DNA of 56,949 nucleotides from a virus (Duplodnaviria; Caudoviricetes). Made by a program: the position numbers and the translations under genes. Of this stretch, positions 1 to 56,949 are shown in pieces. Each line of letters begins with the position of its first letter. The stretch's first letter is position 1. The DNA is taken from positions 1-56,949 of the IMG/VR virus record IMGVR_UViG_3300044568_000318; one strand, given 5' to 3'. Under the pieces are notes generated by a model. The model was not told where the DNA came from, made no database searches, and saw only the letters and a program-made list of their open reading frames with translations.

Positions 1-10
1 TGTACGCCTT

Positions 11-136
11 CCAAGGACAGCCCAGAGTGGAAGGCGTACATCGTCACCCGTGAGGCCATGCGTGATGTGGAGCTTGAGCTTCTTCGTGCACGGTACCTGT
101 CGTTCACTCAGGAGCGCGACTTCGCCTTCCGCGAGA
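11..136. repeat. Terminal direct repeat copy 1 (circular assembly overlap)
   Basis: Identical to 56824-56949 (126 bp); bases 1-10 do not match the sequence preceding copy 2. Confidence 0.95.
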
Positions 137-2970
137 TCGGTGAGGTTACGCAGAACGGTAAGCTGACCACGGCTGAACGCAAGTTCTTCTCCGATGCGTA
201 CCGGCGCTACAAGGAGTTCTGGACCGAGAACCCGATCATCGATGAGAAGAACCGCGTCTCTCCGAATCAGAAGTCGATGGAGAAGGCCAACGAGTTCCTG
301 GCTGCGTTCAACAAGGCACTCATTGCTGAACAAAAGGAAGCCACTGACGCAGTAGCCAAGGAGCGCAACGACAAGTTGCGTGCGTTCCTGGAAGGTCCTG
401 CTGACGACTTCATCCTCTCCCTGGAAGCGTTCAAGGATCGGCTGGTCCGTAGCGAGGAGAACAAGTTCATCGTCCAGAACCGGATGAAGGATCTCATCGC
501 TTCCGATGTGTCCAACGATGGGGCCGATGTTGCCATCCGTCGCAACTTGGCCGGTGGTTACACGCCGATCCTGCGCCGTGGTGGGTTCCAGCTACGCATC
601 GCCGCCACGGTGGGCGGCAAGACTGTTCGCCTGAAGCAGGACTACAAGGACCAACTGGTCTACTCTCAGTTCGAGACCAGGGATGAAGCTGTCGAGTTGT
701 CCAAGCGGATCAACGCCGCGCTGTTCCAGGAAGGCGGGCAGCCCAAGACGTACAAGGTCGAGGCGTTCAACGAAGAGACGATGCAGTACGAGTTGATGGA
801 TGTGCAACTCACCGCAATCCCTGGTACTGCCCTCGATGGTATAGCCGCACCACCTGAGTTGAACCTCAACGAGTTCATACGTGGGCTCCGGCACTTCAGC
901 ATCGCCCTGCCACCCAAGAAGTTGGAGCAGGTCATCGTTGCCCTGACTGCACAGAACGACCGTGCCCGTCAGCGGCTGGAGCGCAACTTCGTGCCCGGTG
1001 GTAGCACTGACGCAGGGCGTGCCGTTGCCGAGCACATCGAAGCACGGGCGTCCACCATCGCCAAGATCATCATGCGCCCGAAGTTGGCCGAGTTGACCAA
1101 CCTCAACATGCGCAGTACCCGCTCACTGTGGTACGGCGATGAGAACCGCCTGCGGCTGCTGAAGGAAGCCGTCGAGCAAGCAACCCCCGAATCCCGTGGG
1201 GCCGCGCAGCGCGAGTATGAGTTCTATGCGTACCAGTACAACAAGACCAATCCAATGGTCAAGGGTGTACGTGTAGAGCGTGGAGCACAGTACTTCAACG
1301 AGGCTGCAAGTGCTCTTCAGTTCCTGGAGCAGAACCGCAACGTCGATGAGTCTGACTTCGCTTCGGGCAAGGTTGCCTCGCAGGTCCGTGCTGCCACGAG
1401 CTACATGCAGTTGGGCGGGTCTGTTGCCACGGGTGCGCTGAACTACATCGGTGCTCTGACCAACAGCCTTGCGTACATGGCGACGTACAACCCGAAGACT
1501 GCCTTCGGTGGGGGTCTCGGACTCGGCAAGTCTGTTGCGGAGTTCAGCAGGGCACTGAACCAAGTAGGGTTGCGCAGGGCTGTCGGCGCACGCCTGGGTA
1601 GAGAGGAAGACCTCAACACCGCTGAGTTCTACACCAGGGTGGCTGCAAGTCCGGAGCTTCAGAAACGGTATGGACTGACCAAGGATGAAGCAGAGTTCCT
1701 GGCTTTCGAGATCCGCGAAGGCGAGATGGTGCCAGCACTGTCCAACGCCACGACCAACACCGCCCGTGGCCGGGTCAGTAGCGGTGCGGCACAGAAGTTC
1801 CTGGACGGATGGATGTGGACGTTCAACTCCACGGAACAAGCTGTGCGTCGTGCTGTGGGTCTGGCGATGTACCGCATGGAGTTCGCACGTGCCAGGGGGG
1901 CAGGACTCGCAGACGCTGACGCACGCAAGCTGGCGCAGGAGTCGGCGGTCAACGCACTGCGCTTCACGCTCGGTGACTACTCGGTCTTGAACCGCCCGCC
2001 GATGTGGCGCAGCGGAGTGCTGTCGTTCGTCTACATCTACAAGACGTTCCCGACGATGAGCATCCAGTTGTTCAAGCGGCTACCCTGGAAGGGGCGGATG
2101 TACATGCTGGCCGCGCTGTTTGTGTTGGGCGGTATCACTGCGTTCCCGTTCGCTGAGGACATCGAAGACCTTATCGACACCATCGCGCAAGGACTCGGAC
2201 TCAAACAAGCCAGCGTCCGCTACGAGATCGCCAAGGTCCTGGACGAACTCGCCCCCGGTGTGTCGCCCTATGTCCTGCGGGGCTTCGCCAACGCCTACTT
2301 CCCCGGCAACACGGCTGATCGCATCAGTCTTGGCAACTTTCTTCCTGGTACGGGTGTCCTACTCGCAGGGGCCAACATCTCCAAGGAAGTTACCGACATG
2401 GCAGGACCTGCTGTGTCGATGCTTCTGGGGACTGCATCCACGATGGTCGATGTGGTCCGTGCGCCGTTCACGGAGCGCGTCTCCTGGGTGGACATCCTGC
2501 GGGAGTCTCCGGTGACAATGCTCCGGGCTTTTGGTGACTCCGTGGCCTACACGCAGTCAGGGGCCATCGTGGACAAGCGCGGGTACGTGGTGTCGGAAGA
2601 TCTCGGTGTATCGACACTGGCTGTGCGGTTGCTCGGGTTCTACCCGGCTGCGGCTACCGAGCAGTACGACGTGATCCGCGTCGCCAAGCGGATGACCGAC
2701 TACCAGAAAGAAGTTGTGGCGGGCTTCCGGCAGGCGTGGATCAAGGCCAAGATCCAAGGTGACGAGGATCAGGCGCAGCAGGTCGTGGACTCTGTGAATG
2801 CATGGAACGAAGGTGCACGCGGCACCGCCCTGGAGATCCGCAACTTCCTACCCAACGCAACCAAGGCGCTGCGAGAAGCACAGCGTCCTGCTGGCGAGCG
2901 GTTCCTCAAGTCGGCACCTCGTGCCGCACGAGAGGACATCGAGACCGTGGCAGATCTGCTGGGATACTAG
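58..2970 (+). CDS. C-terminal 970 aa of the giant internal virion/ejection protein (PLxRFG-like domain); continues the ORF starting at 50754
   Basis: ATG 58 corresponds to ATG 56871, in frame with 50754; YTPILRRG and FNSTEQAVRR...GDYSVLNRPP...YIYKTF motifs resemble PLxRFG-type phage proteins. Confidence 0.8.
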   Translation: MRDVELELLRARYLSFTQERDFAFREIGEVTQNGKLTTAERKFFSDAYRRYKEFWTENPIIDEKNRVSPNQKSMEKANEFLAAFNKALIAEQKEATDAVAKERNDKLRAFLEGPADDFILSLEAFKDRLVRSEENKFIVQNRMKDLIASDVSNDGADVAIRRNLAGGYTPILRRGGFQLRIAATVGGKTVRLKQDYKDQLVYSQFETRDEAVELSKRINAALFQEGGQPKTYKVEAFNEETMQYELMDVQLTAIPGTALDGIAAPPELNLNEFIRGLRHFSIALPPKKLEQVIVALTAQNDRARQRLERNFVPGGSTDAGRAVAEHIEARASTIAKIIMRPKLAELTNLNMRSTRSLWYGDENRLRLLKEAVEQATPESRGAAQREYEFYAYQYNKTNPMVKGVRVERGAQYFNEAASALQFLEQNRNVDESDFASGKVASQVRAATSYMQLGGSVATGALNYIGALTNSLAYMATYNPKTAFGGGLGLGKSVAEFSRALNQVGLRRAVGARLGREEDLNTAEFYTRVAASPELQKRYGLTKDEAEFLAFEIREGEMVPALSNATTNTARGRVSSGAAQKFLDGWMWTFNSTEQAVRRAVGLAMYRMEFARARGAGLADADARKLAQESAVNALRFTLGDYSVLNRPPMWRSGVLSFVYIYKTFPTMSIQLFKRLPWKGRMYMLAALFVLGGITAFPFAEDIEDLIDTIAQGLGLKQASVRYEIAKVLDELAPGVSPYVLRGFANAYFPGNTADRISLGNFLPGTGVLLAGANISKEVTDMAGPAVSMLLGTASTMVDVVRAPFTERVSWVDILRESPVTMLRAFGDSVAYTQSGAIVDKRGYVVSEDLGVSTLAVRLLGFYPAAATEQYDVIRVAKRMTDYQKEVVAGFRQAWIKAKIQGDEDQAQQVVDSVNAWNEGARGTALEIRNFLPNATKALREAQRPAGERFLKSAPRAAREDIETVADLLGY

Positions 2971-11934: not shown

Positions 11935-12131
11935 ACCAACCCCGCCGCTGTCAGCACAACCACGCAGATCGCAGCGATCCCGGCCAGGGCGAGAAGCACA
12001 TCGTCAATCACAATGCGCAGCATGTCGTGATCAGGCTCCTCGGGTTCCCCGATGCCGAGATCAGTCGCCGCTTCGGCGGCTTCGGGATGCCTGCCCTGCT
12101 GGTCAAGTCCTTTCGGTATCCTGCTCATCAC
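11931..12131 (-). CDS. Small protein with C-terminal transmembrane helix
   Basis: Coupled to the polymerase stop. Confidence 0.55.
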   Translation of the reverse strand: MMSRIPKGLDQQGRHPEAAEAATDLGIGEPEEPDHDMLRIVIDDVLLALAGIAAICVVVLTAAGLV

Positions 12132-14848
12132 GTATCTCCGTAGTTGTCAGCCATACCGGACTCACATGCAACCGGCAGGTCGGGTGCCCACTTGGGCGGG
12201 GTTGACATCACAGCAACAAGTTGCTGCTCTGCCGCTGCTGCGTCTTCCTTCTTCGCAGTGATGATGATCTCGTCGTGCACCTGGAACGCTGCGCGGTAGT
12301 GCTGCCCGATGGTCGCCATCTGCTCACGGATGACGATGGCTGCGAGTGCCTGGATGCAGTTCTCCACCACCTTGCCTCCGTAGATCTTCGTCCACGGGAT
12401 GTCCTCGATGTCACCGCCAGTGACACGTTCCTTGAGCGCCTTGCGGTATGCCCGTGCGTCCGAGATGTACTCGAAACCGCTGCCGTTCTGACGCAGTGCA
12501 GGATATTGGACCTTGAACCTGCTCGGCAGGTGGATGCCGTCCTTGTCGTAGGGCAACAGCGGGTGGATCTCGCCACCAGTGCCGAAGACCATGTTGCTCA
12601 GGGCGTTGCCGCACCGCTGCCACAACTGCACGATCTTCCAGTTCTCCTGTCGGTACAGCCTGACGATCCGTTCGGCTTCGTGGATGTCGATCACCACGTT
12701 CACTCCACCCTGTCCGATCTCCAGGGTGCGCCGGAACTTCTCGGCACCCATGCCGTAGCCCAGGCCGAGGATGCAGTTGTGGACAATGACTGGTCCTGCC
12801 TCAGTCAGTATCGTGAACCTGTTGCGAGAGCCGCAGTTCAAGATGTCGTATACGTTCCTCCAAGTCAGCCACCTTACGCTTGTTGCGGAGGTTATCGCTG
12901 CGCGATACGAAGCGGATGTTCCCTGGCGCATAAGGGCCGTCCACGTCGACGCGATCCATCTCGAAATCAGGTCGGTCCCAGCCTTCAAGGGTCTGAACGT
13001 ATCGAAGGAAGGACGCTCTATCCCTGCGCCATTCGGGGTGCACATGGATACCACGTCCGCCGTAGTGCTTGAACACACGACAAGTTGGTGTGTGGCATCG
13101 AGTGATTGCCGAAGCGAGGCGATTGAGTAGGCGAGCCCGGTGCTCATCATCTGCCATTGCTTCGCTGTACACCCAATACCGTTTCGCAGCCGCCGAAGTC
13201 TTGGCGCAAAGAGGGCACCGAGTGCTGCGGAAGTCCTTGAAGTTATGGTTGTCAACCAAGTATTCGGCCTCGTTACAGTCACAGCGGACGATGAGTGCAG
13301 CCACTCCTCTTCGGGGGCCAGCCACATAGCCTGTGACGGTAAGTTTTCCGCTCCGGTGTCCAACGCTTGGTAGAGGGTACCTTCGTCGGCTACCACTGAC
13401 TGCGCTTCCAGCCATTGCATCCCTGACCACACTTGGTGATCCGGAGTCAACCAAGCTCCGCACAGACTCAATGTTGGCTTGATGCCGTTGTTCAGTAGTC
13501 CTTGATGGCATACCCACTCCTCTCCATCCCACAGCTTGTCTTCGGTGGTTACCGATTCGATAGGCTTCCACCCGCTGTCGGATAGTACGAGAGTTCCCTC
13601 GGCAATACAAGTCTTGCCTACGAACCGTTCGATCTTGTCCTTCTTCGTGATGTCCCGTCCGTACACCTTGGATGCGAACTCCGAGTACACGTCACGCTTC
13701 TCACGGAACGCTTGCAGGAGGTCCTCCTGTCCTGCGATGTACGCCACCATGCGAGCCTCGATCTGCGAGGAATCACAGGCAATGATCTTGTGGTCCGGTG
13801 GTGCCTTCAGTGCACGGCGGATCGTCGTGTTGCCACGGCTCGGCAGGTTCTGGAGGTTGAGCTTGTCGCCACCACTGAACCGACCCGTGTGGGCACCGTA
13901 GTAGTTCAGCATGATGGGCAGTCGACCACGCCCAGCCACACCGATGAGGGCTTCGGTCCGAGTCTCTTCGATGGTGGACTTGACCCCGAGGCGAGCAGCC
14001 ACTACGTTCTGCACACGCTCGTCAGGATGTTCCAGCAAGTCGGTCATGCCCTTGTCCGTCTTCGCCAGTGCCCATGTCTCCTTACCCGTGGTGCGGCTGA
14101 TCTTCCTCGGTGGGTCCACACCAAGGTTCCCCAGCATCTGAGCGAATGCGTCGTTGCTCATCAGCGCACGGGACATGGGCAGCGTCCCATCCCCATACAC
14201 CACCAACTTGTCCAGCAGTGCTTGCTTGCGTGCACGCACCTCCTTCAGGTGGTCCTCCAGCAGGGGCACGTCGAGTTCGATCACCGGCTCGGTGTACATG
14301 CGCAGCGTCTGGTCGATGACCAGCAACTCACTGGCGGGGAAGCCCACCTTGAGCTTGTCGAACAACTGCTTGGTCATGTTCACGTCGTTGATGCAGTACT
14401 GTCCGTACTGATCAAGGTCACGCTCGGTGAAGTCCGCACGCCGCTTACCCTTGGCAGCGACGACCTCATCCCCCTTCTTGCCGATGCCGTAGTACGCAGT
14501 GAGCGCAGCGAGACTGCCACCCACAGTGATGTTGTGGTTCGGGCGTGCCATGCTGAGGGTGTCGAGCCACAGCCTGGGCTTGATGCCGAAGTGCCACGAG
14601 AGGATGGCACCATCGAACGCTGTGTTGTGGCACAGGATCGCCCGCTTGCGGTAGTCCAGACCCTTGAGGAACTTGCCGATGGCAGCGTGGTCCCCGGTGA
14701 ACCAGTCGGTGGGGTAGTCGTTGACCTTGATCCCCACACCGATGATCTCGAAACGCGGGTCACGGACGTACGCCTCGGTGGTCATCTTCGACAGGCTGTA
14801 CTCATCGTCGTAGTACGTCTCCATGTCTATTGCCACGATGTCCATCAC
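12128..14848 (-). CDS. Family A DNA polymerase (3'-5' exonuclease plus polymerase), intein-containing precursor
   Basis: Exo DMET and HNTAFD; HTGRFSG, NLQNLP; motif A DSSQIEAR; motif B RFVGKT|CILGLGYG; motif C QVHDE; spliced length 628 aa. Confidence 0.95.
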   Translation of the reverse strand: MMDIVAIDMETYYDDEYSLSKMTTEAYVRDPRFEIIGVGIKVNDYPTDWFTGDHAAIGKFLKGLDYRKRAILCHNTAFDGAILSWHFGIKPRLWLDTLSMARPNHNITVGGSLAALTAYYGIGKKGDEVVAAKGKRRADFTERDLDQYGQYCINDVNMTKQLFDKLKVGFPASELLVIDQTLRMYTEPVIELDVPLLEDHLKEVRARKQALLDKLVVYGDGTLPMSRALMSNDAFAQMLGNLGVDPPRKISRTTGKETWALAKTDKGMTDLLEHPDERVQNVVAARLGVKSTIEETRTEALIGVAGRGRLPIMLNYYGAHTGRFSGGDKLNLQNLPSRGNTTIRRALKAPPDHKIIACDSSQIEARMVAYIAGQEDLLQAFREKRDVYSEFASKVYGRDITKKDKIERFVGKTCIAEGTLVLSDSGWKPIESVTTEDKLWDGEEWVCHQGLLNNGIKPTLSLCGAWLTPDHQVWSGMQWLEAQSVVADEGTLYQALDTGAENLPSQAMWLAPEEEWLHSSSAVTVTRPNTWLTTITSRTSAALGALFAPRLRRLRNGIGCTAKQWQMMSTGLAYSIASLRQSLDATHQLVVCSSTTADVVSMCTPNGAGIERPSFDTFRPLKAGTDLISRWIASTWTALMRQGTSASYRAAITSATSVRWLTWRNVYDILNCGSRNRFTILTEAGPVIVHNCILGLGYGMGAEKFRRTLEIGQGGVNVVIDIHEAERIVRLYRQENWKIVQLWQRCGNALSNMVFGTGGEIHPLLPYDKDGIHLPSRFKVQYPALRQNGSGFEYISDARAYRKALKERVTGGDIEDIPWTKIYGGKVVENCIQALAAIVIREQMATIGQHYRAAFQVHDEIIITAKKEDAAAAEQQLVAVMSTPPKWAPDLPVACESGMADNYGDT
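12776..13609 (-). mobile_element. Intein (278 aa) inserted in PolA motif B
   Basis: Block A CIAEGTLV, block B LTPDH, block F VYDI, block G VHN followed by +1 Cys; removal restores motif B. Confidence 0.95.
12801..13511 (-). CDS. HNH-type homing endonuclease nested in an alternative frame of the intein
   Basis: GKLTV...RCDC...RCPLC, RC...YGGRGI.V..EW, DRVDVDGPYAPGNIRF...N..NKR; SD GGAGAGGAG 5 nt before ATG 13511 (alternative ATG 13415). Confidence 0.85.
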   Translation of the reverse strand: MPSRTTEQRHQANIESVRSLVDSGSPSVVRDAMAGSAVSGSRRRYPLPSVGHRSGKLTVTGYVAGPRRGVAALIVRCDCNEAEYLVDNHNFKDFRSTRCPLCAKTSAAAKRYWVYSEAMADDEHRARLLNRLASAITRCHTPTCRVFKHYGGRGIHVHPEWRRDRASFLRYVQTLEGWDRPDFEMDRVDVDGPYAPGNIRFVSRSDNLRNKRKVADLEERIRHLELRLSQQVHDTD

Positions 14849-17294: not shown

Positions 17295-17531
17295 CTAGTT
17301 GTGTCTGATCGAGGTCGAGGGATCGTCGGCCATCTTGAGTACGTCCCAGATGTCCGAGCACTGTTGTGTCACCTTGCCGAGGAACTCCTCCTTGGTACTG
17401 CCTGAGTTGAGCCCACCGTGCACGATGAGGTACACGAGGGCATTCATGACGGCATCGAAGTCTCCGCCGTCGATCACTTCGCCAATGTCGTTGGCGAGGC
17501 TCATCACGTCATCACCGATGTCCAGCATCAC
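17295..17531 (-). CDS. Small acidic hypothetical protein
   Basis: Coupled to the VWA gene stop. Confidence 0.55.
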   Translation of the reverse strand: MMLDIGDDVMSLANDIGEVIDGGDFDAVMNALVYLIVHGGLNSGSTKEEFLGKVTQQCSDIWDVLKMADDPSTSIRHN

Positions 17532-18676
17532 ATCTCCACCACTTCACCGAAGGGTGCCTTGCCCGGTTCCGTGGTGACCCACAGGACGGGAGCCGCAGGC
17601 TGGATGCCGAAGCTGTTGCAGCACAGGTCGGTGAGGAACGCAATGGCAACGGGCTCGATGCCCTGCTCCACGATGTGAGCGAACACCGGAGCGAAGTCGG
17701 TCCCTCCACCACCGTGGGGCTTGATGTCCAGCGGATCGTCCGGACCGTACTGCTCGGCGTGGCACACCTCACTGTCGAAGTACACCACGTGGATGCACTC
17801 GGGGTTGAGATCCTCCTTGACCACACGGATCTCGGCAGCGAACTGGGCGATCTCCGCATCACCGATGGACCCTGAGCAGTCCACAGCGAAGACGATGGGA
17901 CCCATGCGCTCACCACTGGCAGTGGGCAGGTACAGACCCTGCGGCAGGAAGCGTCGGTTGAACCGAGCCCAGGACCGAGAGTCATCCTTGCACTTCACGA
18001 GGAAGCGTTGCAGCACGTCTCGCCAGTCCACCTTGGGCTGCAACACCTCACCGACCACACGCTCCATGTTGGCCGACATCTTGCCCATCATCCGGGCAGC
18101 CTGTGCAGCCTGAGCCACGCGGACCTTCCACTCCGCAGCCTGTTGCGCTTGGTCAGCAGGAGTGCCCTCGGCATCCTCGCAGTCATCGAGAGGGCCGGGT
18201 CCTTGCCCGTCGCCCTGATCTTCGGGCAGGATGTTGTAGATCCCGTCCGAGGTGCCGTGCCCTGCGGTGTAGATGTTCTTGTCCAGCAGTCCCATGCTGG
18301 GCATCTTGCCGATCTTCTCGTCGGTCAGCAGTTGGTTGATCACGTAGTCAGCGGCACGGTTCCACTTCTTGTGGTCCCGGCCATGTCGCCGGTAGTTGTG
18401 CTCCAGCATGGGATGGAAGCACTCGTGGGCCACGAGGAACTTGAGTTCCTCATCCGACAACTTGTCGATGAACTCCGGGTTGAACAGCACACGCTTGCCG
18501 TTCGTCGCTGCCGTGGGGATGTCGAACGACAGGGTGAAGGGCATGGACAGGGCCACCGTGCCGACGAAGGGATGCTCAAGGATGAGAGCAGTCTTCGCCT
18601 TGGCAAGGCGGGTCTTGAGGACGGACTCCTTGCGGGGGTCCAGGGTCTTGGGCTTGGTTGCTACTACGCTTGTCAT
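17528..18676 (-). CDS. Metallopeptidase (HExxH) plus VWA domain protein (DUF2201-like)
   Basis: TAATNG, HECFH, WNRAAD; MIDAS motif DCSGS, GGGTDF, LTD. Confidence 0.9.
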   Translation of the reverse strand: MTSVVATKPKTLDPRKESVLKTRLAKAKTALILEHPFVGTVALSMPFTLSFDIPTAATNGKRVLFNPEFIDKLSDEELKFLVAHECFHPMLEHNYRRHGRDHKKWNRAADYVINQLLTDEKIGKMPSMGLLDKNIYTAGHGTSDGIYNILPEDQGDGQGPGPLDDCEDAEGTPADQAQQAAEWKVRVAQAAQAARMMGKMSANMERVVGEVLQPKVDWRDVLQRFLVKCKDDSRSWARFNRRFLPQGLYLPTASGERMGPIVFAVDCSGSIGDAEIAQFAAEIRVVKEDLNPECIHVVYFDSEVCHAEQYGPDDPLDIKPHGGGGTDFAPVFAHIVEQGIEPVAIAFLTDLCCNSFGIQPAAPVLWVTTEPGKAPFGEVVEM

Positions 18677-50753: not shown

Positions 50754-53700
50754 ATGGCAACCGCAGGTCTGTCGCTAGGAAGTTCGTTTCTTCCGGCGTC
50801 TGGCGAAGTCCCTTCGCCTGTTGTCAACCCATACGAACTGCGAGCTTCTGGGCTCAGCGGACTTGGGTCTAGCGCAGCCGACATTGCATCCCTGGGCGCA
50901 CAGGGTGTTGCGATGTTCTCGAACCGGCTGAAGCTGCCGGAAACGAAAGAACCGACGATTGCCTACAGTGGATCCAAGAAGCAGTTCTTCGTCCAGGGCA
51001 CGACGTTCGACGCTGATGATGCAGACGCGGCGCTTCGCTCCGAGCAACTTCTTGGTGGGGTACCCACGGGTTTACCCGAAGGTGACTGGATCCCGCTGAC
51101 TACCCAGCAGTACGGACAACTTCTTCAGTCGATTCGCCAGCCTGGGCTGGGCACCCTGGCGTCCAAGGGATTCGGGCGTGGGGTCGACATCAGCCAGATG
51201 CTGGTGGGCCGTGGCTTGCAGCTTGCCGGTGCCGAAGAGTTGGGTGGCCGCATCGTTGCCCAGCAGATGGAGGATCTGCGTAAGACCCAGCCGTACGAAC
51301 GACAGTTCACGGATGTCAAGTCTGGCGGGGACGCAGTTGACTGGCTGGTGGCGAACTTCGCCCAGCAAGGTCCGAACCTGATCGAGTCCATCGTCACGGC
51401 TGGCCTTGGCTTCCTGGCTGGTACTGCCTCTTCCGGTAATCCGTTGGGTGGGGCTGCGGCTTCGCTTGCCAGCGTCATCGGTAAGGAGACATGGAAGAAC
51501 TCGGTCAAGGACGCACTGAAGAAGCGTGCTGCTGGTGAGGCGTTGACCCCAGACGCAGAGAAGTTGTTGCGAACCGCCGCAGGCGTGGGGATGGCTACCG
51601 CCGTCACGTTCGGTCAGGGCATGGCTACTGGCGCTGCTGACATCTACGGTGAACTGCGTGAGCGCGGGGCCGATGCTGATGATGTAACCGCCCGGATGAC
51701 CGCCTTGAAGGGGTCTGTGCCGTACGCCTTGTTGGACATCCTGCCGGAGGCAGTGCTGTTCAGTCGCCTGCTGGGGCGTGGTGCACGTCCCGCGTTGGGC
51801 ACGCTGCCCACTGCTCGCGCCAAGGCCCTGGAGGTTGCACAGCGCGGGCTTGTCGGTGGTGCTGTGGGTGGCGCAGCCGGAGGCACTTCAGAACTGGGGC
51901 AGGAAGCACTGCTTCTCTATATGTCGGACCAGGAACTTGGTTCGCCTGAGAACGTCAAGCGGCTGATCAACTCCTTCGCCGCAGGTGCTGCGGTCAGTGG
52001 CCCCATCGGCGCTGGCGTCAACATCTTCAACCCGTCGAACCTACTGCAACCAGGCACCTCCACCGACCCCACGGGGACTCAGCAGCCGGTCACGCCGACG
52101 CTGCCTGCCAGCGCACCTCGCGGAACTCAGGGCGAGCTGTTCCCCATCGCTCCTGGGGAGATGGCAGGTCCTGCGTTCTCGCCGCTCCCTCCTCGACCCG
52201 CTCCGGGCGTCGTGCCTGCACAGCCTGGGCAGATGGCGCTGTTCGAACCGACTGCGCCCACGGTTGCGTCCAGGATGGAGCGCGGCATGATGCCGCCTGG
52301 GCCGATGGCGCAGGGTCAGTTGGCTCTGGTCGGTGGTCAGGTTGCGCCGGGATACGTGCCGCCGCAGGCGTTCGCTCCTGAGGTTCCAGCAGTCCCTGGC
52401 TTGTCTTCGCAAGAAGCCGCCGCACAAGGTGCGCTTCAGTTCGCTCCGCCTGCTCCTGAGGGTCGCCCGGTTGGCACTATGGCTAACCAACTCCAGGCCA
52501 TCGTGGACCGACAGCGCCGCGAGCGTGAGCTTGCCGCCATCGAGGCCCAGCAGGCCGCACAGCGTGAGGCAGACCTGGAACGACTGGCCGTTCAGGCTAC
52601 GAATCAGCGACTACTGGAACAAGCAGGACTTGCCGAAGCGCCTGCGCCCGCACCGGCCCTGCCGATGGTGCCCATCACCCCCCGTCAACCGCAGCAGTTG
52701 CCGCTGTTCACGCGCCGTCAGGCTCCGGTCCCGCCGAAGGCAGGGCAGTTGCGCCGTGGGCGCAAGATGCAGCCCGCTCCTGCTGCACAGCCCGACCGTG
52801 GCATCCGGCAGGCGACGTTGCAACTGCCGATGTTTACCGCTACGGGTGAGCCTTCGCTGCCCGCGCTCAAGGCTGCTGGTACCCGGAAGAAGGTCGCTGC
52901 TGCGCCCGCCCCTACACCTGCGAAGAATACTGCCGGTGCTCGTGGTCTGAAGAAGGGTGCCAAGGTCGCAGAGATCAATGTCGCAGAAGCTGAACGTCCT
53001 GAAGTTGCTACGCAACGAGCTACGCTAGAAAGATTGCTTCCCAAGGAAACTGGCAACTTGAAGTTGGAAAAAATTACTGCTTATGCTGGTAACTGGCGTG
53101 TGTCGTACATTACCGCCGATGGCCGTAGCGGTAACAGTATGCCAGTCAATGCTGAGGATTTGGTTGGGAAAACGGACGCTGAGATTAAAGTAATGCTGGC
53201 TGACCGTGCCCGAAAGAACGGATTAAAAGAAGTCGCAGATGCCATTGAAACAAGGAACCTCAAACAAGGTCGTGTCGCAAAACGTGCGGAAGATCGTACG
53301 GGAGTGGGAGCAGGGGGGAACGCTGGGCAACAGCCCCCGACCCAAGAGCAAGGCGCAGGCCGTCCGGCAGGCGGTCGCGGCGTCGCTCTCAAGCGCGGGA
53401 AGAAAGCAGAAGTAGCTCCAACAGCCAAGGTCATCCCGCTGAAGCGAAAAGAAACAGCACCTACTCCGGCAACGGTTGAGACTCTGGTTCGCTTCCGTTG
53501 GACAGACGGCACCCGTGGAGCGTATGTTGTGCTCAGCAACGGTAAGGTTGTTGAACTGTACGCATTCGACACCAACACGTGGACCTCACCTGCTGTAGCG
53601 GAGGACGTGACGTTGGGCACTACCCTGCAAGAGGCAGCCCAGGAGGTTGCTTCTCGGGAGGGTACTGCACAAGAAGTGCCCGCTGTCTCAGAGGCCCGCA

Positions 53701-56700
53701 AGACTGAGCTTCTGAAAGAGAAGCCGAAGACCCGCAAGGAACTGACGTTTGAAGAGCGTCGGACCATGCAGTTGGATGAGGAAGAGGACGCTGCCGAGGC
53801 AGTCCCACCGAAGAAGGAGCCCCCGCCCCCAAAAGGTGAGGCGGCGGTTACGCCGCCTGCTCCCGCACCCGGTGAAGGCTTCCTCGACTCCACGAAGTAC
53901 GTCTACCACGTAGTACGCAGTGATGCCGACATCCCCGGCATCATGAAAAGCGGGTTGCGTCCGGGCTCTAACGTCAGTTTCGACACCGATGGTCAGGCGT
54001 TCTCGGGCGAAGGCGACACGATTCTGGTCTTCCTCCGTGAAGCTGTTAGCCCCGACACCAAGGAGTACCAGGGCGATGGCGTAACGACCAAGGCCGCCAA
54101 GCCAGTGGCAATCCTGAAGGACACCTCGGTGGAAGCCGGAGGTGGGACCAAGCAGGACCTGGAAGAACAAGCTGCTACGGCGCAGGAAGAGTTCGACAAG
54201 CTTGTCGAGTACTCACAACGTGAGTACGGGCTCTCTCAAGGAGATGTCGAAGCATACGCCTGGGGCACCAAGAAGATCACGGCTGCACCGGCAGAAGCAC
54301 AGCCGTTGATGAAGCGACTGCGTGCGTTGTCTGCCCGAGTTGATAGGCTGCTCGAGGAAAGCGAGCGTGCACCGGACACCGCTGTTTCCGCAGAGACTGT
54401 GCTTGCTAAGTACACGCAGTACGACGTGCCGGTACAGCAGGTGGTGATCGAAGCGCAGGACGATGGGCAGCTAGTAACGCTAGGTGTGAAAGCTCCCACA
54501 CGCACAATCTCCGCTGAGGACCAGTGGAACGAAGAGCGACTGCCTGGGGATGTGGCTTTCGTCGATCTGCCGAAGTCTGCCAAGGACCGGTGGGAGGCGT
54601 CCGACCGCTCGGGTGCTGCGCAGGTTGTGATCCTGCAAGAAGTCGGTGACCAACTGTTGCCGATGACGCCGACTGAACGGCTGAACTACGCCATCGCAGC
54701 CGCCTCCGCTGCGATGGATGCGGCCAACATCGACGGCTTCACGAACACCATCGACACGATTGTCGAGGTGGCGTACTTCACCCCTGGAGACGACTACACC
54801 AAGGCGCAGCAGGCCGAGGCGCTTCAGTTCCTGTCTGACCCGGACGACTTCAACGGGGCAGAGCAGCAAGCGATCCAGGATTCCTTCGTGGTTGCCGCTG
54901 AAGGCAAGACGCTGGAGACCACCACCAAGAAGACCAAGACCGGAACCGGCGAGGCAGGTGCCTATCGCCCGTGGTACTCCTACGCCCTGGACACACCGGG
55001 CATGATCCAGCGGCTCTCCACCGTCAACGTGGTGTTCAGTTCGATACCGGAAGCCGAAGCCCGCAGACTCCTCAGTGACGGCTTGATCACACGGGCCAAC
55101 CTGCCTGTGTCTACGGCCAACAGGATCCTCGGCAAGGAAGTGACAGCCAAGGAGGACAGCGAAGCCAACCCACAGCGCAGTCCGCTGTTCTACCTGCTGG
55201 AGGAGATCACCAAGCTCAACAGCAGCACCGCACCGCTGAACGCTAAGGCTCAGAAGGCTGCCATTGAACGGTTGCGTGCGTACTACGCCGCTGCACTTGA
55301 GCAGGACCTCGACACGGCGCAGGTGGATCAGTACTTCCGCACCGATGGCACGCCCATCACAGCCAAGATTGATGATCTGTTCCGTGTTCTCAACGAAGAG
55401 GACTACAACAACCGTGGCGCACTGGAAGCGGCAAGCCGCGCAGAACGCAAGGCAGCAGATGCTGCCAAGCGTGGCCCCACGATCAGCACTTTCGATGACT
55501 GGGAAGAGGACGGACGGTTCTTCAGCGACGACAACGTGCCGCTCAAGCCGATGGGTGCCGGACGCATCCGGATGGCCGTTACCAAGTTCCTGAGCAAGCT
55601 CAAGATCAAGCCCACGGTTCACGTCTTCCGCAACCAGGAAGACCTCAAGGCCAGCAACCCCGAGTTGTACCGCCGCGCCGTGGCTGCACGCCCACAGGGT
55701 GACTTCGATCTCACGCCTGCTGCGGGCTACTCGTTCGGGCAGGACCAAGTCATCATCTTCTCTGACCGCATCCGTACCGAGAGACATCTGAACTTCGTCC
55801 TGGCGCACGAGACGCTGGGTCACTTCGGTCTGCGAAGCATCCTGCCGAAGGACAAGTTCAACGCGGTGATGGAGGACATCTACAACAGAAGCGACAACGT
55901 GCGCCTTGCGGTGGACGCCGCGATGGATGTCCGCGACATGCCGAAGGCTGAAGCAGTCGAGGAGTACCTCGCTGACTTCGCAGCCAACCTGGATGTCAGC
56001 CTCATCGCTCGTGTGTGGAACGCCATCAAGGACGCACTCAACGCACTGGGCATCCGGTTCGGTGACGAGGCTGCACGGTTCTGGGTGAGTCAGGCACGAC
56101 GTTATGTCCGCACTGGGCAGACCTCTTCGCTCTTCACCGTGCAAGATGTCATGGCGCGAGTGCAGGCTGTCGAGACGGCCGATGACCCTGACAATACGGG
56201 GCGCTTCGTCGTGGCTGGTGACTTGCGGATGGACAACATCCGCGCTGCCGACCTGATGCAGGACGTTGCCACCGGGTTCTCGAACATCACCGAAGCGACC
56301 AAGAGCCTCAAGGGTGTGCTCGGCAACACGCAGGAGAGCGTGGACAAGTTCCTGGCCCAGGTGTTCAGCCTGATGAACTTCCGCGCCCGTGAGAACGCAG
56401 GTGCCTACGAAGTGGATCGGGTGTTGCGCAGGGGCCGTGGCATTGCGATGGAGGTGCGCAACGCGCTCAACGAGAAGCTGGCACCCATGCTCAGCCGTGC
56501 GGTCGAGGTACCGTTCAGCAAGATCACGTTTGGTGGTATCACTGAAGTCCAGTACGAGCAGGCCAACCGCCTCCTGTACGCCGCACAGCGGCTGAAGTTC
56601 AGCACCATCCCGACGCCATCTGAACTGGGCCGCACCCCGCTGTATCGGGTGAACCCGGACACGGGCGAACTCATCCCCAACCAGACCGAGATCGACCGGC

Positions 56701-56949
56701 TCTACAACATGGGGCTGATAACGCTGGAGCAGGCCCGGGATGGATTCACGTACAAAGACACGTACATGGATGCCGGGGAGGAGAAGACCGAAACCGTTCG
56801 TGTTGCAGGTATCCCCGGGCTGACCAAGGACAGCCCAGAGTGGAAGGCGTACATCGTCACCCGTGAGGCCATGCGTGATGTGGAGCTTGAGCTTCTTCGT
56901 GCACGGTACCTGTCGTTCACTCAGGAGCGCGACTTCGCCTTCCGCGAGA
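50754..56949 (+). CDS. Giant (~3009 aa) polyvalent internal virion protein, N-terminal part; runs through the junction to 2970
   Basis: ATG 50754 in frame with ATG 56871 (= position 58); the track lists no terminated ORF in this frame; segments translated by hand are open and contain HETLGH and ART-like motifs. Confidence 0.85.
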   Translation, partial: MATAGLSLGSSFLPASGEVPSPVVNPYELRASGLSGLGSSAADIASLGAQGVAMFSNRLKLPETKEPTIAYSGSKKQFFVQGTTFDADDADAALRSEQLLGGVPTGLPEGDWIPLTTQQYGQLLQSIRQPGLGTLASKGFGRGVDISQMLVGRGLQLAGAEELGGRIVAQQMEDLRKTQPYERQFTDVKSGGDAVDWLVANFAQQGPNLIESIVTAGLGFLAGTASSGNPLGGAAASLASVIGKETWKNSVKDALKKRAAGEALTPDAEKLLRTAAGVGMATAVTFGQGMATGAADIYGELRERGADADDVTARMTALKGSVPYALLDILPEAVLFSRLLGRGARPALGTLPTARAKALEVAQRGLVGGAVGGAAGGTSELGQEALLLYMSDQELGSPENVKRLINSFAAGAAVSGPIGAGVNIFNPSNLLQPGTSTDPTGTQQPVTPTLPASAPRGTQGELFPIAPGEMAGPAFSPLPPRPAPGVVPAQPGQMALFEPTAPTVASRMERGMMPPGPMAQGQLALVGGQVAPGYVPPQAFAPEVPAVPGLSSQEAAAQGALQFAPPAPEGRPVGTMANQLQAIVDRQRRERELAAIEAQQAAQREADLERLAVQATNQRLLEQAGLAEAPAPAPALPMVPITPRQPQQLPLFTRRQAPVPPKAGQLRRGRKMQPAPAAQPDRGIRQATLQLPMFTATGEPSLPALKAAGTRKKVAAAPAPTPAKNTAGARGLKKGAKVAEINVAEAERPEVATQRATLERLLPKETGNLKLEKITAYAGNWRVSYITADGRSGNSMPVNAEDLVGKTDAEIKVMLADRARKNGLKEVADAIETRNLKQGRVAKRAEDRTGVGAGGNAGQQPPTQEQGAGRPAGGRGVALKRGKKAEVAPTAKVIPLKRKETAPTPATVETLVRFRWTDGTRGAYVVLSNGKVVELYAFDTNTWTSPAVAEDVTLGTTLQEAAQEVASREGTAQEVPAVSEARKTELLKEKPKTRKELTFEERRTMQLDEEEDAAEAVPPKKEPPPPKGEAAVTPPAPAPGEGFLDSTKYVYHVVRSDADIPGIMKSGLRPGSNVSFDTDGQAFSGEGDTILVFLREAVSPDTKEYQGDGVTTKAAKPVAILKDTSVEAGGGTKQDLEEQAATAQEEFDKLVEYSQREYGLSQGDVEAYAWGTKKITAAPAEAQPLMKRLRALSARVDRLLEESERAPDTAVSAETVLAKYTQYDVPVQQVVIEAQDDGQLVTLGVKAPTRTISAEDQWNEERLPGDVAFVDLPKSAKDRWEASDRSGAAQVVILQEVGDQLLPMTPTERLNYAIAAASAAMDAANIDGFTNTIDTIVEVAYFTPGDDYTKAQQAEALQFLSDPDDFNGAEQQAIQDSFVVAAEGKTLETTTKKTKTGTGEAGAYRPWYSYALDTPGMIQRLSTVNVVFSSIPEAEARRLLSDGLITRANLPVSTANRILGKEVTAKEDSEANPQRSPLFYLLEEITKLNSSTAPLNAKAQKAAIERLRAYYAAALEQDLDTAQVDQYFRTDGTPITAKIDDLFRVLNEEDYNNRGALEAASRAERKAADAAKRGPTISTFDDWEEDGRFFSDDNVPLKPMGAGRIRMAVTKFLSKLKIKPTVHVFRNQEDLKASNPELYRRAVAARPQGDFDLTPAAGYSFGQDQVIIFSDRIRTERHLNFVLAHETLGHFGLRSILPKDKFNAVMEDIYNRSDNVRLAVDAAMDVRDMPKAEAVEEYLADFAANLDVSLIARVWNAIKDALNALGIRFGDEAARFWVSQARRYVRTGQTSSLFTVQDVMARVQAVETADDPDNTGRFVVAGDLRMDNIRAADLMQDVATGFSNITEATKSLKGVLGNTQESVDKFLAQVFSLMNFRARENAGAYEVDRVLRRGRGIAMEVRNALNEKLAPMLSRAVEVPFSKITFGGITEVQYEQANRLLYAAQRLKFSTIPTPSELGRTPLYRVNPDTGELIPNQTEIDRLYNMGLITLEQARDGFTYKDTYMDAGEEKTETVRVAGIPGLTKDSPEWKAYIVTREAMRDVELELLRARYLSFTQERDFAFRE
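56824..56949. repeat. Terminal direct repeat copy 2
   Basis: Identical to 11-136. Confidence 0.95.

What the first reader, a model, noticed from the sequence alone, without database searches (positions are those of the whole stretch)
12776..13609. Intein carrying its homing endonuclease as a nested gene in a shifted reading frame
Seen: PolA is interrupted in motif B (RFVGKT|CILGLGYG) by a 278-aa intein with intact blocks A, B, F and G. The in-frame stretch between blocks B and F is Ser/Thr/Arg/Trp-rich and shows no LAGLIDADG or HNH motif. The -1 frame on the same strand (12801-13511) encodes a complete HNH-family protein (GKLTV..RCDC..CPLC; RC..YGGRGI.V..EW; DRVDVDGPYAPGNIRF..N..NKR) lying wholly inside the intein. 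Established: canonical inteins carry their endonuclease in frame as one polypeptide. Inference: this is a dual-coding mobile element in which a separately translated HNH drives homing, while the intein frame stays stop-free and splices out the off-frame linker so the polymerase remains functional. I recall a conceptually similar hidden-frame HNH in an actinobacteriophage methylase insertion, but cannot verify whether the intein version has been described.
Basis: partly seen in the sequence, partly recalled or inferred. Interest (0 to 1): 0.95.

Follow-up and report, generated by a model that had tools for sequence, protein, structure and literature searches.

The report
Polymerase intein with nested out-of-frame endonuclease
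A self-splicing protein insert (intein) in a lake phage's DNA polymerase gene carries its probable mobility nuclease as a separate gene written in a shifted reading frame of the same DNA; the layout is real and kept by selection in many phages, but this kind of intein has already been described.

Summary
Observation confirmed. PolA (12128-14848, minus strand) is split in motif B by a 278-aa intein (12776-13609). Its ends model as a HINT splicing fold (Z 14.8 to the Mtu RecA intein). Its middle 150 residues are predicted disordered.

The -1 frame (12801-13511) encodes a 236-aa HNH-superfamily protein. PHROG HNH gives E 1.9e-27. The motif is PacI-like, with Arg in place of His and an invariant Tyr.

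- The same frame offset holds in 51 of 51 IMG/VR relatives and 6 of 6 GenBank phages checked, including Salmonella Jerseyvirus.
- A +1-frame version sits in 4 other phage polymerases.
- Selection switches frames: dN/dS is 0.18 / 1.23 / 0.20 in the intein frame and 1.31 / 0.14 / 1.22 in the HNH frame, for the N-splice, centre and C-splice parts.
- 43 of 43 unique inteins keep an ATG at the same spot. In the window it follows GGAGAGGAG.
- A 97-98% identical polymerase has the empty site, and one lake metagenome holds both alleles.

Translation, splicing and cleavage are inferred, not shown.

Out-of-frame intein endonucleases were reported in 2025-26 preprints for other nuclease families and genes. 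This scan has noted the same layout in at least 74 other genomes. I class it as a new variant of a known kind, of moderate interest.

The parts
12128..14848 (-). Family A DNA polymerase precursor ORF (906 aa), intein included
   Evidence: DNA_pol_A 8.2e-28, DNA_pol_A_exo1 4.6e-06, phrog_17 DNA polymerase 2.9e-82.
13610..14848 (-). N-extein (413 aa), ending ...ERFVGKT in motif B
   Evidence: It is 98% identical in aa to the intein-less relative L062 over the 163 residues before the site. The 60 nt next to the site are identical, 60 of 60.
12776..13609 (-). Intein, 278 aa, in the polA frame (Cys1 ... His-Asn, followed by Cys+1)
   Evidence: It is an exact 834-bp insertion relative to L062. A metagenome contig skips 834 nt at this place.
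13325..13609 (-). N-terminal splicing domain (intein aa 1-95; block A Cys1, block B TPDH)
   Evidence: AF2 pLDDT is 93-95 and the model matches the HINT fold at Z 14.8 to 2imz_A. The variable codon position here is position 3 of the intein frame, with dN/dS 0.18.
12875..13324 (-). In-frame 'linker' (intein aa 96-245): stop-free reading of the nuclease gene in the polA frame
   Evidence: AF2 pLDDT is 27-35 with no secondary structure. dN/dS in this frame is 1.23. The frame is open although 5.6 stops are expected. This part is deleted in the mini-intein L061.
12776..12874 (-). C-terminal splicing domain (intein aa 246-278; blocks F and G, ...VIVHN)
   Evidence: pLDDT is 94. dN/dS is 0.20 in the intein frame and 1.22 in the HNH frame.
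12128..12775 (-). C-extein (215 aa plus stop), starting CILGLGYGMG (rest of motif B)
   Evidence: It is 97% identical in aa to L062.
12801..13511 (-). Nested ORF in the -1 (+2) frame: 236-aa PacI-like HNH-superfamily endonuclease, ATG 13511-13509, TGA 12803-12801
   Evidence: phrog_374 HNH 1.9e-27. 231 metagenomic homologues, many of exactly 236 aa. AF2 mean pLDDT 86. dN/dS 0.14 in the centre.
13517..13525 (-). Shine-Dalgarno-like GGAGAGGAG, 5 nt upstream of the nested ATG, written in the intein codons for D-G-E-E
   Evidence: sequence. An ATG lies at intein nt 77, 92 or 98 in 43 of 43 unique inteins, and 42 of 43 have a purine-rich SD-like motif upstream.
12858..13397 (-). Part of the nested ORF where protein-level selection acts on the HNH frame (HNH aa about 39-218)
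   Evidence: From HNH-frame (alt) codon 71 to 250, numbered from the intein's start, the most variable position is HNH codon position 3.
13206..13283 (-). Cys4 zinc-ribbon-like motif (C77, C79, C99, C102)
   Evidence: These residues are invariant or nearly invariant in alignments A1 and A2. The homologue P0017 hits the Pfam CapR homology domain in its residues 51-103.
12882..12956 (-). Beta-beta-alpha-metal motif DRVDVDGPYAPGNIRFVSRSDNLRN (D186, R187, Y194, N198, N210)
   Evidence: These are invariant columns. The model has strands 183-187 and 199-203 and helix 204-210. There is a weak sequence match (E 0.094) and a weak structure match (Z 5.2) to PacI.

Best explanation
The element is a mobile, class-1-type intein in motif B of a phage family A DNA polymerase. 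It is dual-coded.

In the polA frame it encodes a bipartite HINT splicing domain: aa 1-95 and aa 246-278. These two parts are joined by a roughly 150-aa stop-free spacer that is otherwise unconstrained and predicted disordered. After translation the whole 278-aa insert is expected to splice out and restore GKT-CILGLGYG.

The spacer DNA, together with parts of both splicing-domain segments, is read in the -1 frame as an independent 236-aa gene. This gene starts at its own ATG, which lies behind a Shine-Dalgarno-like GGAGAGGAG written in the intein's DGEEWVC codons. Its product is a Zn-ribbon plus beta-beta-alpha-metal nuclease of the PacI-like, His-less type: Arg sits where HNH enzymes have the general-base His, and there is an invariant Tyr in the omega loop.

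The nuclease most likely cuts or nicks intein-less polA alleles of co-infecting phages near the motif B site. Repair from the intein-bearing copy then spreads intein and nuclease together. This amounts to a free-standing homing-endonuclease gene sheltered inside an intein, much as such genes are sheltered inside group I introns.

Shown: the architecture, selection on both frames, conserved start signals, the HINT fold of the ends, the sporadic distribution and the empty allele.

Inferred: independent translation, splicing, nuclease activity and the target site.
For: Architecture:
- The HNH frame equals the polA frame minus 1 in 51 of 51 IMG/VR loci and in 6 of 6 GenBank loci L001-L006.
- The polA frame is open through the intein in 46 of 46 complete loci.

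Selection for openness:
- All 52 natural sequences are open in the intein frame.
- Synonymous resamples give 2.8-9.7 expected stops, and only 0-3.25% of 400 resamples are open.

Frame-specific constraint (42 unique sequences, 861 pairs):
- N-splice part: dN/dS 0.18 in the intein frame, 1.31 in the HNH frame.
- Centre: 1.23 in the intein frame, 0.14 in the HNH frame.
- C-splice part: 0.20 in the intein frame, 1.22 in the HNH frame.
- The variable codon position switches at HNH-frame (alt) codons of about 70 and 250.

Start signals:
- An ATG lies at intein nt 77, 92 or 98 in 43 of 43 unique inteins, and 42 of 43 have an SD-like motif.
- 33 of 43 carry xTA-TGY, which creates the ATG at nt 98.

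Folds:
- Intein ends have pLDDT of at least 93 and match the Mtu RecA intein at Z 14.8, rmsd 2.4, 116 residues aligned. The middle has pLDDT 27-35.
- The nuclease model has mean pLDDT 86. It hits phrog_374 at 1.9e-27 and PacI at Z 5.2. The invariant motif is DR.D..G.Y.P.N...N with four Cys.
- PacI uses a Tyr in the omega loop in place of the His (PMC5714182, passages).

Mobility:
- 76 of 79 scoreable close polA relatives lack the intein.
- L062 has the exact empty site.
- Run X6 holds a contig that skips 834 nt alongside the intein-bearing contig.
- Intein N-domain identity and HNH identity co-vary (rho 0.80). Extein identity and HNH identity do so only weakly (rho 0.35).
- Related inteins sit at two motif B sites 4 aa apart, in 25 and 21 loci.

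Origin:
- The nuclease family has 104,828 cluster representatives at E<=1e-3, mostly short stand-alone proteins.
- It is free-standing in many phages.
Against: - No experiment or expression data exists: no RNA run holds the stretch, and there is no proteomic or ribosome-profiling evidence for the nested protein.
- Pfam and NCBIfam HNH models do not hit the protein.
- Foldseek found no PDB match at E<=1e-3.
- The PacI match is weak: Z 5.2, tied with an unrelated chain at Z 5.3, and sequence E 0.094.
- The canonical catalytic His is absent, so activity rests on the analogy with PacI.
- The first ~38 residues of the nested protein show no selection of their own, because the intein frame dominates there. 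The true start could therefore lie elsewhere.
- The target site is unknown. A nuclease from this large, mostly free-standing family need not cut polA.
Confidence: 0.8

Rival explanations
1. The nested nuclease is real and translated, but it does not drive homing of this intein. It would instead serve the phage or itself in another way, such as cutting competitor or host DNA, or targeting another locus. The intein would be only a tolerated landing place.
For: - The family is very large and mostly free-standing: 104,828 representatives, with free-standing copies in Staphylococcus, Enterococcus, Vibrio and Mycobacterium phages.
- No target site has been shown.
- The window has another, unrelated HNH gene at 17528-18676.
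Against: - Intein and nuclease co-vary tightly (rho 0.80).
- They occur together in 51 of 51 loci.
- The pair is sporadic among near-identical polymerases.
- The pair is found in exteins only 29-47% identical to the window's, while the intein is 87% and the HNH 75% identical (L013). That pattern is expected for homing of the unit.
Confidence: 0.12
2. The HNH module is not translated from its own start. It would be reached by -1 ribosomal frameshifting from the intein frame, giving an N-extein/intein-N/HNH fusion.
For: - The first ~38 codons of the nested ORF carry no HNH-frame selection, so the point of entry into that frame is not fixed by selection data alone.
Against: - The window has no X_XXY_YYZ heptamer in the intein frame within nt 0-330. 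Only 11 of 43 unique inteins have any, and at differing places.
- An ATG with an SD-like motif is kept in 43 of 43 and 42 of 43.
- Upstream stops in the HNH frame lie at varied places, at intein nt 86 or earlier, with the ATG always after them.
Confidence: 0.05
3. The layout is an artefact or a decaying relic: compensating indel errors, or a formerly in-frame HNH intein knocked out of frame and now drifting.
For: Canonical inteins carry the endonuclease in frame (established knowledge). Pfam sees no HNH here.
Against: - Contigs from independent runs match with 0 differences and 0 gaps.
- The same offset is found in 51 of 51 and 6 of 6 loci.
- dN/dS is 0.14 in the HNH frame.
- A search among longer proteins found no in-frame polymerase-intein-HNH fusion. 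The 2 hits were tandem nuclease modules. That tool calls such a blank weak evidence.
Confidence: 0.01

Closest known systems
[quoted passage not shown]
   Same: - The intein splicing domain is in the host-gene frame.
- The homing endonuclease is on the same strand in another frame, between the splicing blocks.
- The in-frame reading of that region has no recognisable structure.
- The origin proposed is invasion of an intein by a free-standing HEN.
- The distribution is sporadic.
   Different: - There the nuclease is endonuclease VII-like (Z 6.5 to 1E7D over residues 1-67). Here it is a PacI-like, His-less HNH with an N-terminal Cys4 module. The only link is a weak phrog_1035 'endonuclease VII' hit at 7.5e-06.
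- The hosts there are actinophages. The host proteins named for non-canonical HENs are DNA polymerase (the survey lists Pol III alpha), minor capsid, terminase and thymidylate synthase. Here the host gene is family A polymerase motif B in phages of Proteobacteria and lake bacteria.
- The passages I read do not report start signals or frame-specific dN/dS for that type.
[quoted passage not shown] It cites Gorbalenya 1998 'Non-canonical inteins', which I did not read.
   Same: - An overlapping HE ORF lies inside a contiguous intein.
- The HE ORF is under purifying selection.
[quoted passage not shown]
- Secondary invasion of a mini-intein is proposed.
   Different: - The HE there is of LAGLIDADG type.
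- The host gene is a cellular gene (Pol III gamma/tau), not a phage gene.
- The 2025 preprint describes the Synechocystis dnaX case as antisense, so the two accounts differ on strand and frame.
ShiLan domain: hidden out-of-frame HNH in actinophage DNA methylases (Arsenault et al., Genes 2025, PMC11855218; abstract and passages)
   Same: - An out-of-frame HNH sits inside an insertion that stays stop-free in the host-gene frame.
- The element shows a homing-like distribution.
- PacI (3LDY) was among the structures used there for comparison.
   Different: ShiLan has no detectable splicing domain and is neither intein nor intron by their tests. Here the flanking HINT domain is intact and models with high confidence.
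'Fractured genes': split inteins with a free-standing endonuclease gene between the halves (Dassa et al. 2009, PMC2677866; search listing and start of abstract only)
   Same: A free-standing HE gene is lodged at the position inside an intein where HE domains normally sit.
   Different: There the host gene and intein are broken into two ORFs that trans-splice. Here the intein frame stays contiguous through the nuclease gene.
PacI restriction endonuclease (PDB 3LDY/3M7K), group 20 of the His-Me finger classification (PMC5714182, passages)
   Same: - The motif is ...DR.D...GY.P.N.R..., without the general-base His and with a Tyr in the omega loop.
- Zinc-binding Cys motifs flank a beta-beta-alpha-metal core.
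   Different: - The similarity is weak: profile E 0.094, and Z 5.2 with 18% identity over 85 residues.
- PacI is a stand-alone restriction enzyme of 142 aa.
- The nested protein has extra N-terminal and C-terminal coiled-coil-like helices.

Membership tests
Intein (HINT domain, class 1) | N-terminal Cys/Ser nucleophile, block B TxxH, C-terminal His-Asn, and Cys/Ser/Thr at +1 | tested here: met
   Cys1, TPDH at aa 55-58...VIVHN, then Cys+1. C1, T55, P56, D57, H58, H277 and N278 are invariant in 34 aligned inteins.
Intein (HINT domain, class 1) | HINT fold formed by the N- and C-terminal segments | tested here: met
   The AF2 model matches 2imz_A (Mtu RecA intein splicing domain) at Z 14.8, rmsd 2.4, 116 residues aligned. 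Of 31 rows with Z>=5, nearly all are inteins or other HINT domains. pLDDT is at least 93 for aa 1-95 and 246-278.
Intein (HINT domain, class 1) | In-frame insertion at a conserved site of an essential protein, with intein-less alleles in relatives | tested here: met
   The site is in motif B, GKT|CILGLGYG. 76 of 79 scoreable relatives lack the intein. The insertion is exactly 834 bp relative to L062.
Intein (HINT domain, class 1) | Protein splicing activity | not testable with these tools
   Requires expressing the precursor and detecting the ligated exteins.
HNH / His-Me finger nucleases | Match to curated HNH family profiles | tested here: inconclusive
   PHROG HNH families hit strongly: phrog_374 1.9e-27, phrog_3377 7.5e-19, phrog_2081 1.2e-17. 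Pfam and NCBIfam give no HNH hit.
HNH / His-Me finger nucleases | General-base His at the end of beta-1 | tested here: not met
   The position is an invariant Arg (R187, in 'DR.D') in alignments A1 and A2. PacI likewise has DR in the aligned stretch and is reported to lack the His (PMC5714182 passages).
PacI-like His-less beta-beta-alpha-metal nucleases (group 20) | Tyr in the omega loop substituting for His, with metal-ligand Asn/Asp in the core helix | tested here: inconclusive
   The invariant Y194 lies between strands 183-187 and 199-203, and N198 and N210 are invariant. The PacI match itself is weak: E 0.094 and Z 5.2, tied with an unrelated chain.
Non-canonical inteins with the homing endonuclease in a separate ORF | Endonuclease ORF lies between the splicing blocks in another frame or strand, and the host-frame reading of it has no fold | tested here: met
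   The ORF at 12801-13511 lies inside the intein at 12776-13609 in the -1 frame. The in-frame middle has pLDDT 27-35.
Non-canonical inteins with the homing endonuclease in a separate ORF | The nested ORF is maintained by purifying selection and travels with the intein | tested here: met
   dN/dS is 0.14 in the HNH frame against 1.23 in the intein frame in the centre. Intein-N identity and HNH identity give rho 0.80.
Homing endonuclease (function) | Cleaves the element-less allele at or near the insertion site | not testable with these tools
   Only indirect support is available: sporadic distribution, both alleles in one metagenome, and the same unit in divergent exteins.
Group I / II intron (considered as an alternative carrier of the ORF) | Ribozyme structure recognisable by covariance models | tested here: not met
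   Rfam 15 scan of 12500-13900, both strands, E<=1: 0 matches. The polA frame is also open with intact intein blocks.

The most novel reading that the evidence does not exclude
This is not a transitional oddity but a large, stable and so far unrecognised lineage of 'protein-level introns'. A free-standing PacI-like, His-less nuclease gene is sheltered out of frame inside family A polymerase inteins. The intein's own conserved codons (LWDGEEWVC) serve as its ribosome-binding site and start.

The lineage occupies at least three polymerase sites and two different frame offsets (+2 and +1). It is present in well over a hundred sequenced Salmonella and E. coli phages, where annotations treat the intein as carrying splicing domains only.

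Out-of-frame nesting may be favoured over fusion because it uncouples nuclease dosage from polymerase dosage. No in-frame form was seen, though the search for one was weak.
Probability: 0.45. Interest if true: 0.6.

Novelty: new variant of a known kind. Interest (0 to 1): 0.42.

Why it matters
Inteins are usually described as single polypeptides, with a splicing domain and an in-frame endonuclease. This element shows the other solution, with about 710 nt of same-strand dual coding. An independent homing-endonuclease gene hides in a second frame, and the intein only has to keep its own frame free of stops. That supports the 'splicing first, endonuclease invades later' model of intein origin.

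There are practical consequences too:
- Genome annotation is affected. GenBank records variously label this stretch 'DNA polymerase', 'hypothetical protein', 'endonuclease' or 'HNH endonuclease'.
- The lineage is present in easily grown Salmonella and E. coli phages. Internal initiation, splicing of a junk-bearing intein and homing by a His-less HNH could all be tested directly.
- A rare-cutting nuclease that targets a polymerase motif may also be useful as a tool.

The specific window adds one more member to a lineage this scan has already met many times.

Tried and rejected
- Megablast of the polA gene against GenBank phages found nothing. I used protein-level searches instead.
- Pfam and NCBIfam gave no hit for either frame of the intein.
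- phmmer of the in-frame intein against PDB sequences found nothing at E<=1. The HINT fold was only seen after modelling.
- Foldseek of the nuclease model against PDB found no match at E<=1e-3.
- The VIA-align wide search gave PacI at Z 5.2, tied with an unrelated axonemal chain at Z 5.3. I use this only as weak support.
- The in-frame intein also hit phrog_93 'endonuclease' (7.7e-16, aa 19-246). I did not work out what that family contains and place no weight on it.
- The search for in-frame fusions among longer proteins gave 2 hits, both tandem nuclease modules without polymerase. The tool states that finding none is weak evidence.
- No canonical -1 frameshift heptamer is present in the window. 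Only 11 of 43 inteins have any, at differing places.
- No RNA holder was listed for the stretch, so nothing can be said about expression.
- All runs laid were contigs, so depth and ends carry little weight. The 60-nt contig that skips 834 nt is placed one base off my intein borders. A synonymous ACC in place of ACT in the Thr codon before the site would explain that, but this is my inference.
- Rows dropped before counts:
  - One search used only the 46 of 51 loci that contained the intein from residue 1 to the C-terminal hit.
  - Searches left out the mini-intein L061 and collapsed 51 sequences to 42 unique ones.
  - could not score L105, which has no C-extein in the locus.
- pS in the centre is near saturation (median 0.82). 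The dN/dS of 0.14 there is therefore rough; the uncorrected pN/pS is 0.33.
- In one search, the 33 sequences with xTA-TGY were selected by that very codon pair. Its invariance within them is circular and I do not use it.
- Literature searches for this polymerase-intein layout were (0 papers). None of the papers listed describes an out-of-frame nuclease in family A polymerase inteins or in Jerseyvirus. The Jerseyvirus paper I opened (PMC8425127, passages) mentions inteins only in general terms.
- Supplements were closed. Supplemental Table 1 of the 2025 preprint could list further host genes.

Full report
**What is there.** The window looks like a circularly permuted phage genome of about 57 kb. 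It encodes primase/helicase, helicase, terminase, portal-like and internal virion proteins, and a giant ORF runs off the window's end. Its stretch around the finding occurs in many lake-water metagenome runs.

On the minus strand, 12128..14848 is a 906-aa family A DNA polymerase (DNA_pol_A 8.2e-28, 3'-5' exonuclease 4.6e-06, phrog_17 2.9e-82). It reads ...ERFVGKT|CIAEGTLV...PVIVHN|CILGLGYGMG. So a 278-aa insert (12776..13609) sits in motif B with Cys1, TPDH, terminal His-Asn and Cys+1.

A second frame on the same strand is open from 13610 to 12801. From the ATG at 13511 it gives 236 aa. This is offset +2, that is -1, from the intein frame.

**What the two frames encode.** Pfam and NCBIfam see nothing in either frame.

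The -1-frame protein hits PHROG families annotated HNH endonuclease (phrog_374 1.9e-27, phrog_3377 7.5e-19, phrog_2081 1.2e-17) and, weakly, 'endonuclease VII' (phrog_1035, 7.5e-06). With 59 metagenomic homologues it models at mean pLDDT 86. The model has a beta-rich Cys4 module, a helical part and a strand-loop-strand-helix at residues 183-210.

The columns invariant across ten distant relatives are G51, G55, C77, C99, C102, R138, P142, Y150, G151, R153, G154, I155, D186, R187, Y194, N198 and N210. The usual general-base His is an invariant Arg ('DR.D'), and an invariant Tyr sits in the loop between the two strands.

The only solved relative is PacI, and the link is weak: profile E 0.094 with the stretch 'LGVDRSDSFEGYSPQN', and Z 5.2, rmsd 3.0, 85 residues aligned, tied with an unrelated chain. 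Foldseek found nothing. PacI is the known His-less member of the superfamily, in which a Tyr of the omega loop takes over the role of the His (PMC5714182, passages). I therefore call the nested protein a PacI-like HNH-superfamily nuclease. Its activity is inferred.

The polA-frame reading of the insert, modelled with 33 relatives, has pLDDT of at least 93 for residues 1-95 and 246-278. Residues 96-245 have pLDDT 27-35 and no secondary structure. The model matches intein splicing domains: 2imz_A at Z 14.8 with 116 residues aligned, and nearly all of the 31 rows at Z>=5 are inteins or other HINT domains. An Rfam scan finds no intron.

**Not an error, not chance.**
- Contigs of independent runs cover the intein with 0 differences and 0 gaps.
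- tblastn of the nested protein finds it under 'DNA polymerase' in GenBank phages. These are mainly Salmonella Jerseyvirus, E. coli Kagunavirus, a Vibrio phage and an EBPR siphovirus.
- In all six such loci I opened, the match is offset +2 from the annotated polymerase CDS. In phage Ent1 the intein is annotated as 'encoding splicing domains' only.
- In IMG/VR, 51 of 51 related loci have the HNH frame equal to the polA frame minus 1.
- In 46 of 46 complete loci the polA frame is open through the intein. The nested stop lies 1-49 nt before the intein end in 45 of them, and 26 nt past it in one.
- Holding each nested protein fixed and resampling synonymous codons predicts 2.8-9.7 stops in the polA frame. 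Only 0-3.25% of 400 resamples are open, whereas all 52 natural sequences are open.

**Selection switches frames.** In 42 unique inteins, the most variable codon position is position 3 of the intein frame for HNH-frame (alt) codons 1-70 and 251-277, numbered from the intein's start. For alt codons 71-250 it is position 3 of the HNH frame, which is position 2 of the intein frame.

Pairwise NG86 over 861 pairs gives median dN/dS as follows:

| Region | Intein frame | HNH frame |
|---|---|---|
| N-splice part | 0.18 | 1.31 |
| Centre | 1.23 | 0.14 |
| C-splice part | 0.20 | 1.22 |

pS is near saturation in the centre, where the uncorrected pN/pS is 0.33. Around intein aa 75-95 all three positions are quiet, so both frames seem constrained there. 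The central polA-frame peptide is therefore selected only to lack stops.

**How the nested gene is probably expressed.** In the window the minus strand reads GGAGAGGAG, then 5 nt, then ATG.
- All 43 unique inteins have an ATG at intein nt 77, 92 or 98 of the HNH frame, and 42 have a purine-rich SD-like word upstream.
- Upstream stops in that frame always precede the ATG.
- A canonical slippery heptamer is absent from the window and present, at differing places, in only 11 of 43.

Internal initiation is thus the best reading, and frameshifting a weak rival. No RNA run was listed.

**Mobility.**
- Of the 80 closest polymerases found with the N-extein, 79 could be scored. 76 lack the intein and 3 have it; those 3 come from contigs already found through the nuclease.
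- The closest, L062 (98% and 97% aa identity in the extein parts compared), has the uninterrupted site GKTCILGLGYG. It has 60 of 60 identical nt on each side, so the window carries an exact 834-bp insertion.
- In run X6 a short contig joins the two flanks, skipping 834 nt (depth 2.1), beside the intein-bearing contig (depth 8.2). Both alleles therefore appear to coexist in one sample.
- The same intein-nuclease unit sits in polymerases that are only 29-47% identical to the window's, while the intein N-domain is 87% and the nuclease 75% identical (L013).
- Intein N-domain and nuclease identities co-vary (rho 0.80). Extein and nuclease identities do so only weakly (rho 0.35).
- Two motif B sites four residues apart are used, in 25 and 21 loci.
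- L061 is a 158-aa mini-intein with the nuclease region deleted.

**A wider lineage.** Four further phage polymerases carry related inteins at other polymerase sites: Caulobacter GB2A, Shewanella SFCi1, Streptococcus Javan107 and APSE-3. In these the homologous nuclease ORF is in the +1 frame.

The nuclease family is very large. It has 104,828 cluster representatives at E<=1e-3 and 51,589 at E<=1e-10, mostly 170-260 aa. It is free-standing in many phages. A search among longer proteins found no in-frame polymerase-intein fusion, only tandem modules (weak evidence). This fits capture of a free-standing homing-endonuclease gene by a mini-intein.

**Comparison with what is known.** The general kind is in print.
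[quoted passage not shown] It proposes invasion by free-standing HENs.
- A 2026 preprint shows an out-of-frame HE under purifying selection in the cyanobacterial dnaX intein, and cites Gorbalenya 1998 (the 1998 paper was not read).
- The ShiLan element is an out-of-frame HNH without any splicing domain.

My searches found no description of this layout in family A polymerase inteins, in Jerseyvirus or with a PacI-like nuclease.

This scan has already noted the same layout: 81 notes in at least 74 genomes, several with follow-up reports reaching the same verdict.

**Verdict.** Function is still inferred. I class this as a new variant of a known kind: a different nuclease family, a different host gene, and clear start signals. 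Interest is moderate, because the concept is published and this window is one more member of a lineage seen many times.

Noticed in passing
L007-L010 (Caulobacter phage GB2A, Shewanella phage SFCi1, Streptococcus phage Javan107, APSE-3): Related inteins sit at other polymerase sites (TYGGKL|CENxxQA, or ELA|CGYGG). They carry a homologous nuclease ORF in the +1 frame instead of +2, with an extra C-terminal helix-turn-helix-like tail in three of them.
   Followed up: partly
L061:2903-3376: A 158-aa mini-intein of the same lineage with the nuclease region deleted. It keeps only the first ~65 residues of the nested ORF, and its polA frame is still open.
   Followed up: partly
L089: This polymerase has an empty motif B site, but elsewhere in the locus it carries an intein-like hit (47%) and a nuclease hit (32%) in the +1 frame relative to polA. 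That suggests a second-site intein.
   Followed up: no
window 17528-18676 (-): A separate, apparently free-standing 382-aa HNH endonuclease gene of another family (phrog_1314, 1.1e-97) lies in the same phage.
   Followed up: no
window 50754-56948 and 1-2970 (+): A giant ORF runs off the end of the window and appears to continue at its start, so the window looks like a circularly permuted complete genome.
   Followed up: no
P0121, P0122 and several hits: Some proteins of 400-830 aa consist of two to six tandem copies of the same nuclease module.
   Followed up: no
window 12776-13609, polA frame: The in-frame intein matches phrog_93 'endonuclease' over aa 19-246 (7.7e-16). That family may have been built from polymerase-frame translations of such inteins.
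   Followed up: no
GenBank records under: Annotation of the dual-coded stretch is inconsistent. It appears as 'DNA polymerase', 'intein-containing DNA polymerase precursor', 'hypothetical protein', 'endonuclease' or 'HNH endonuclease' (for example SS3e, Ijeoma and the UPWr_S phages).
   Followed up: no
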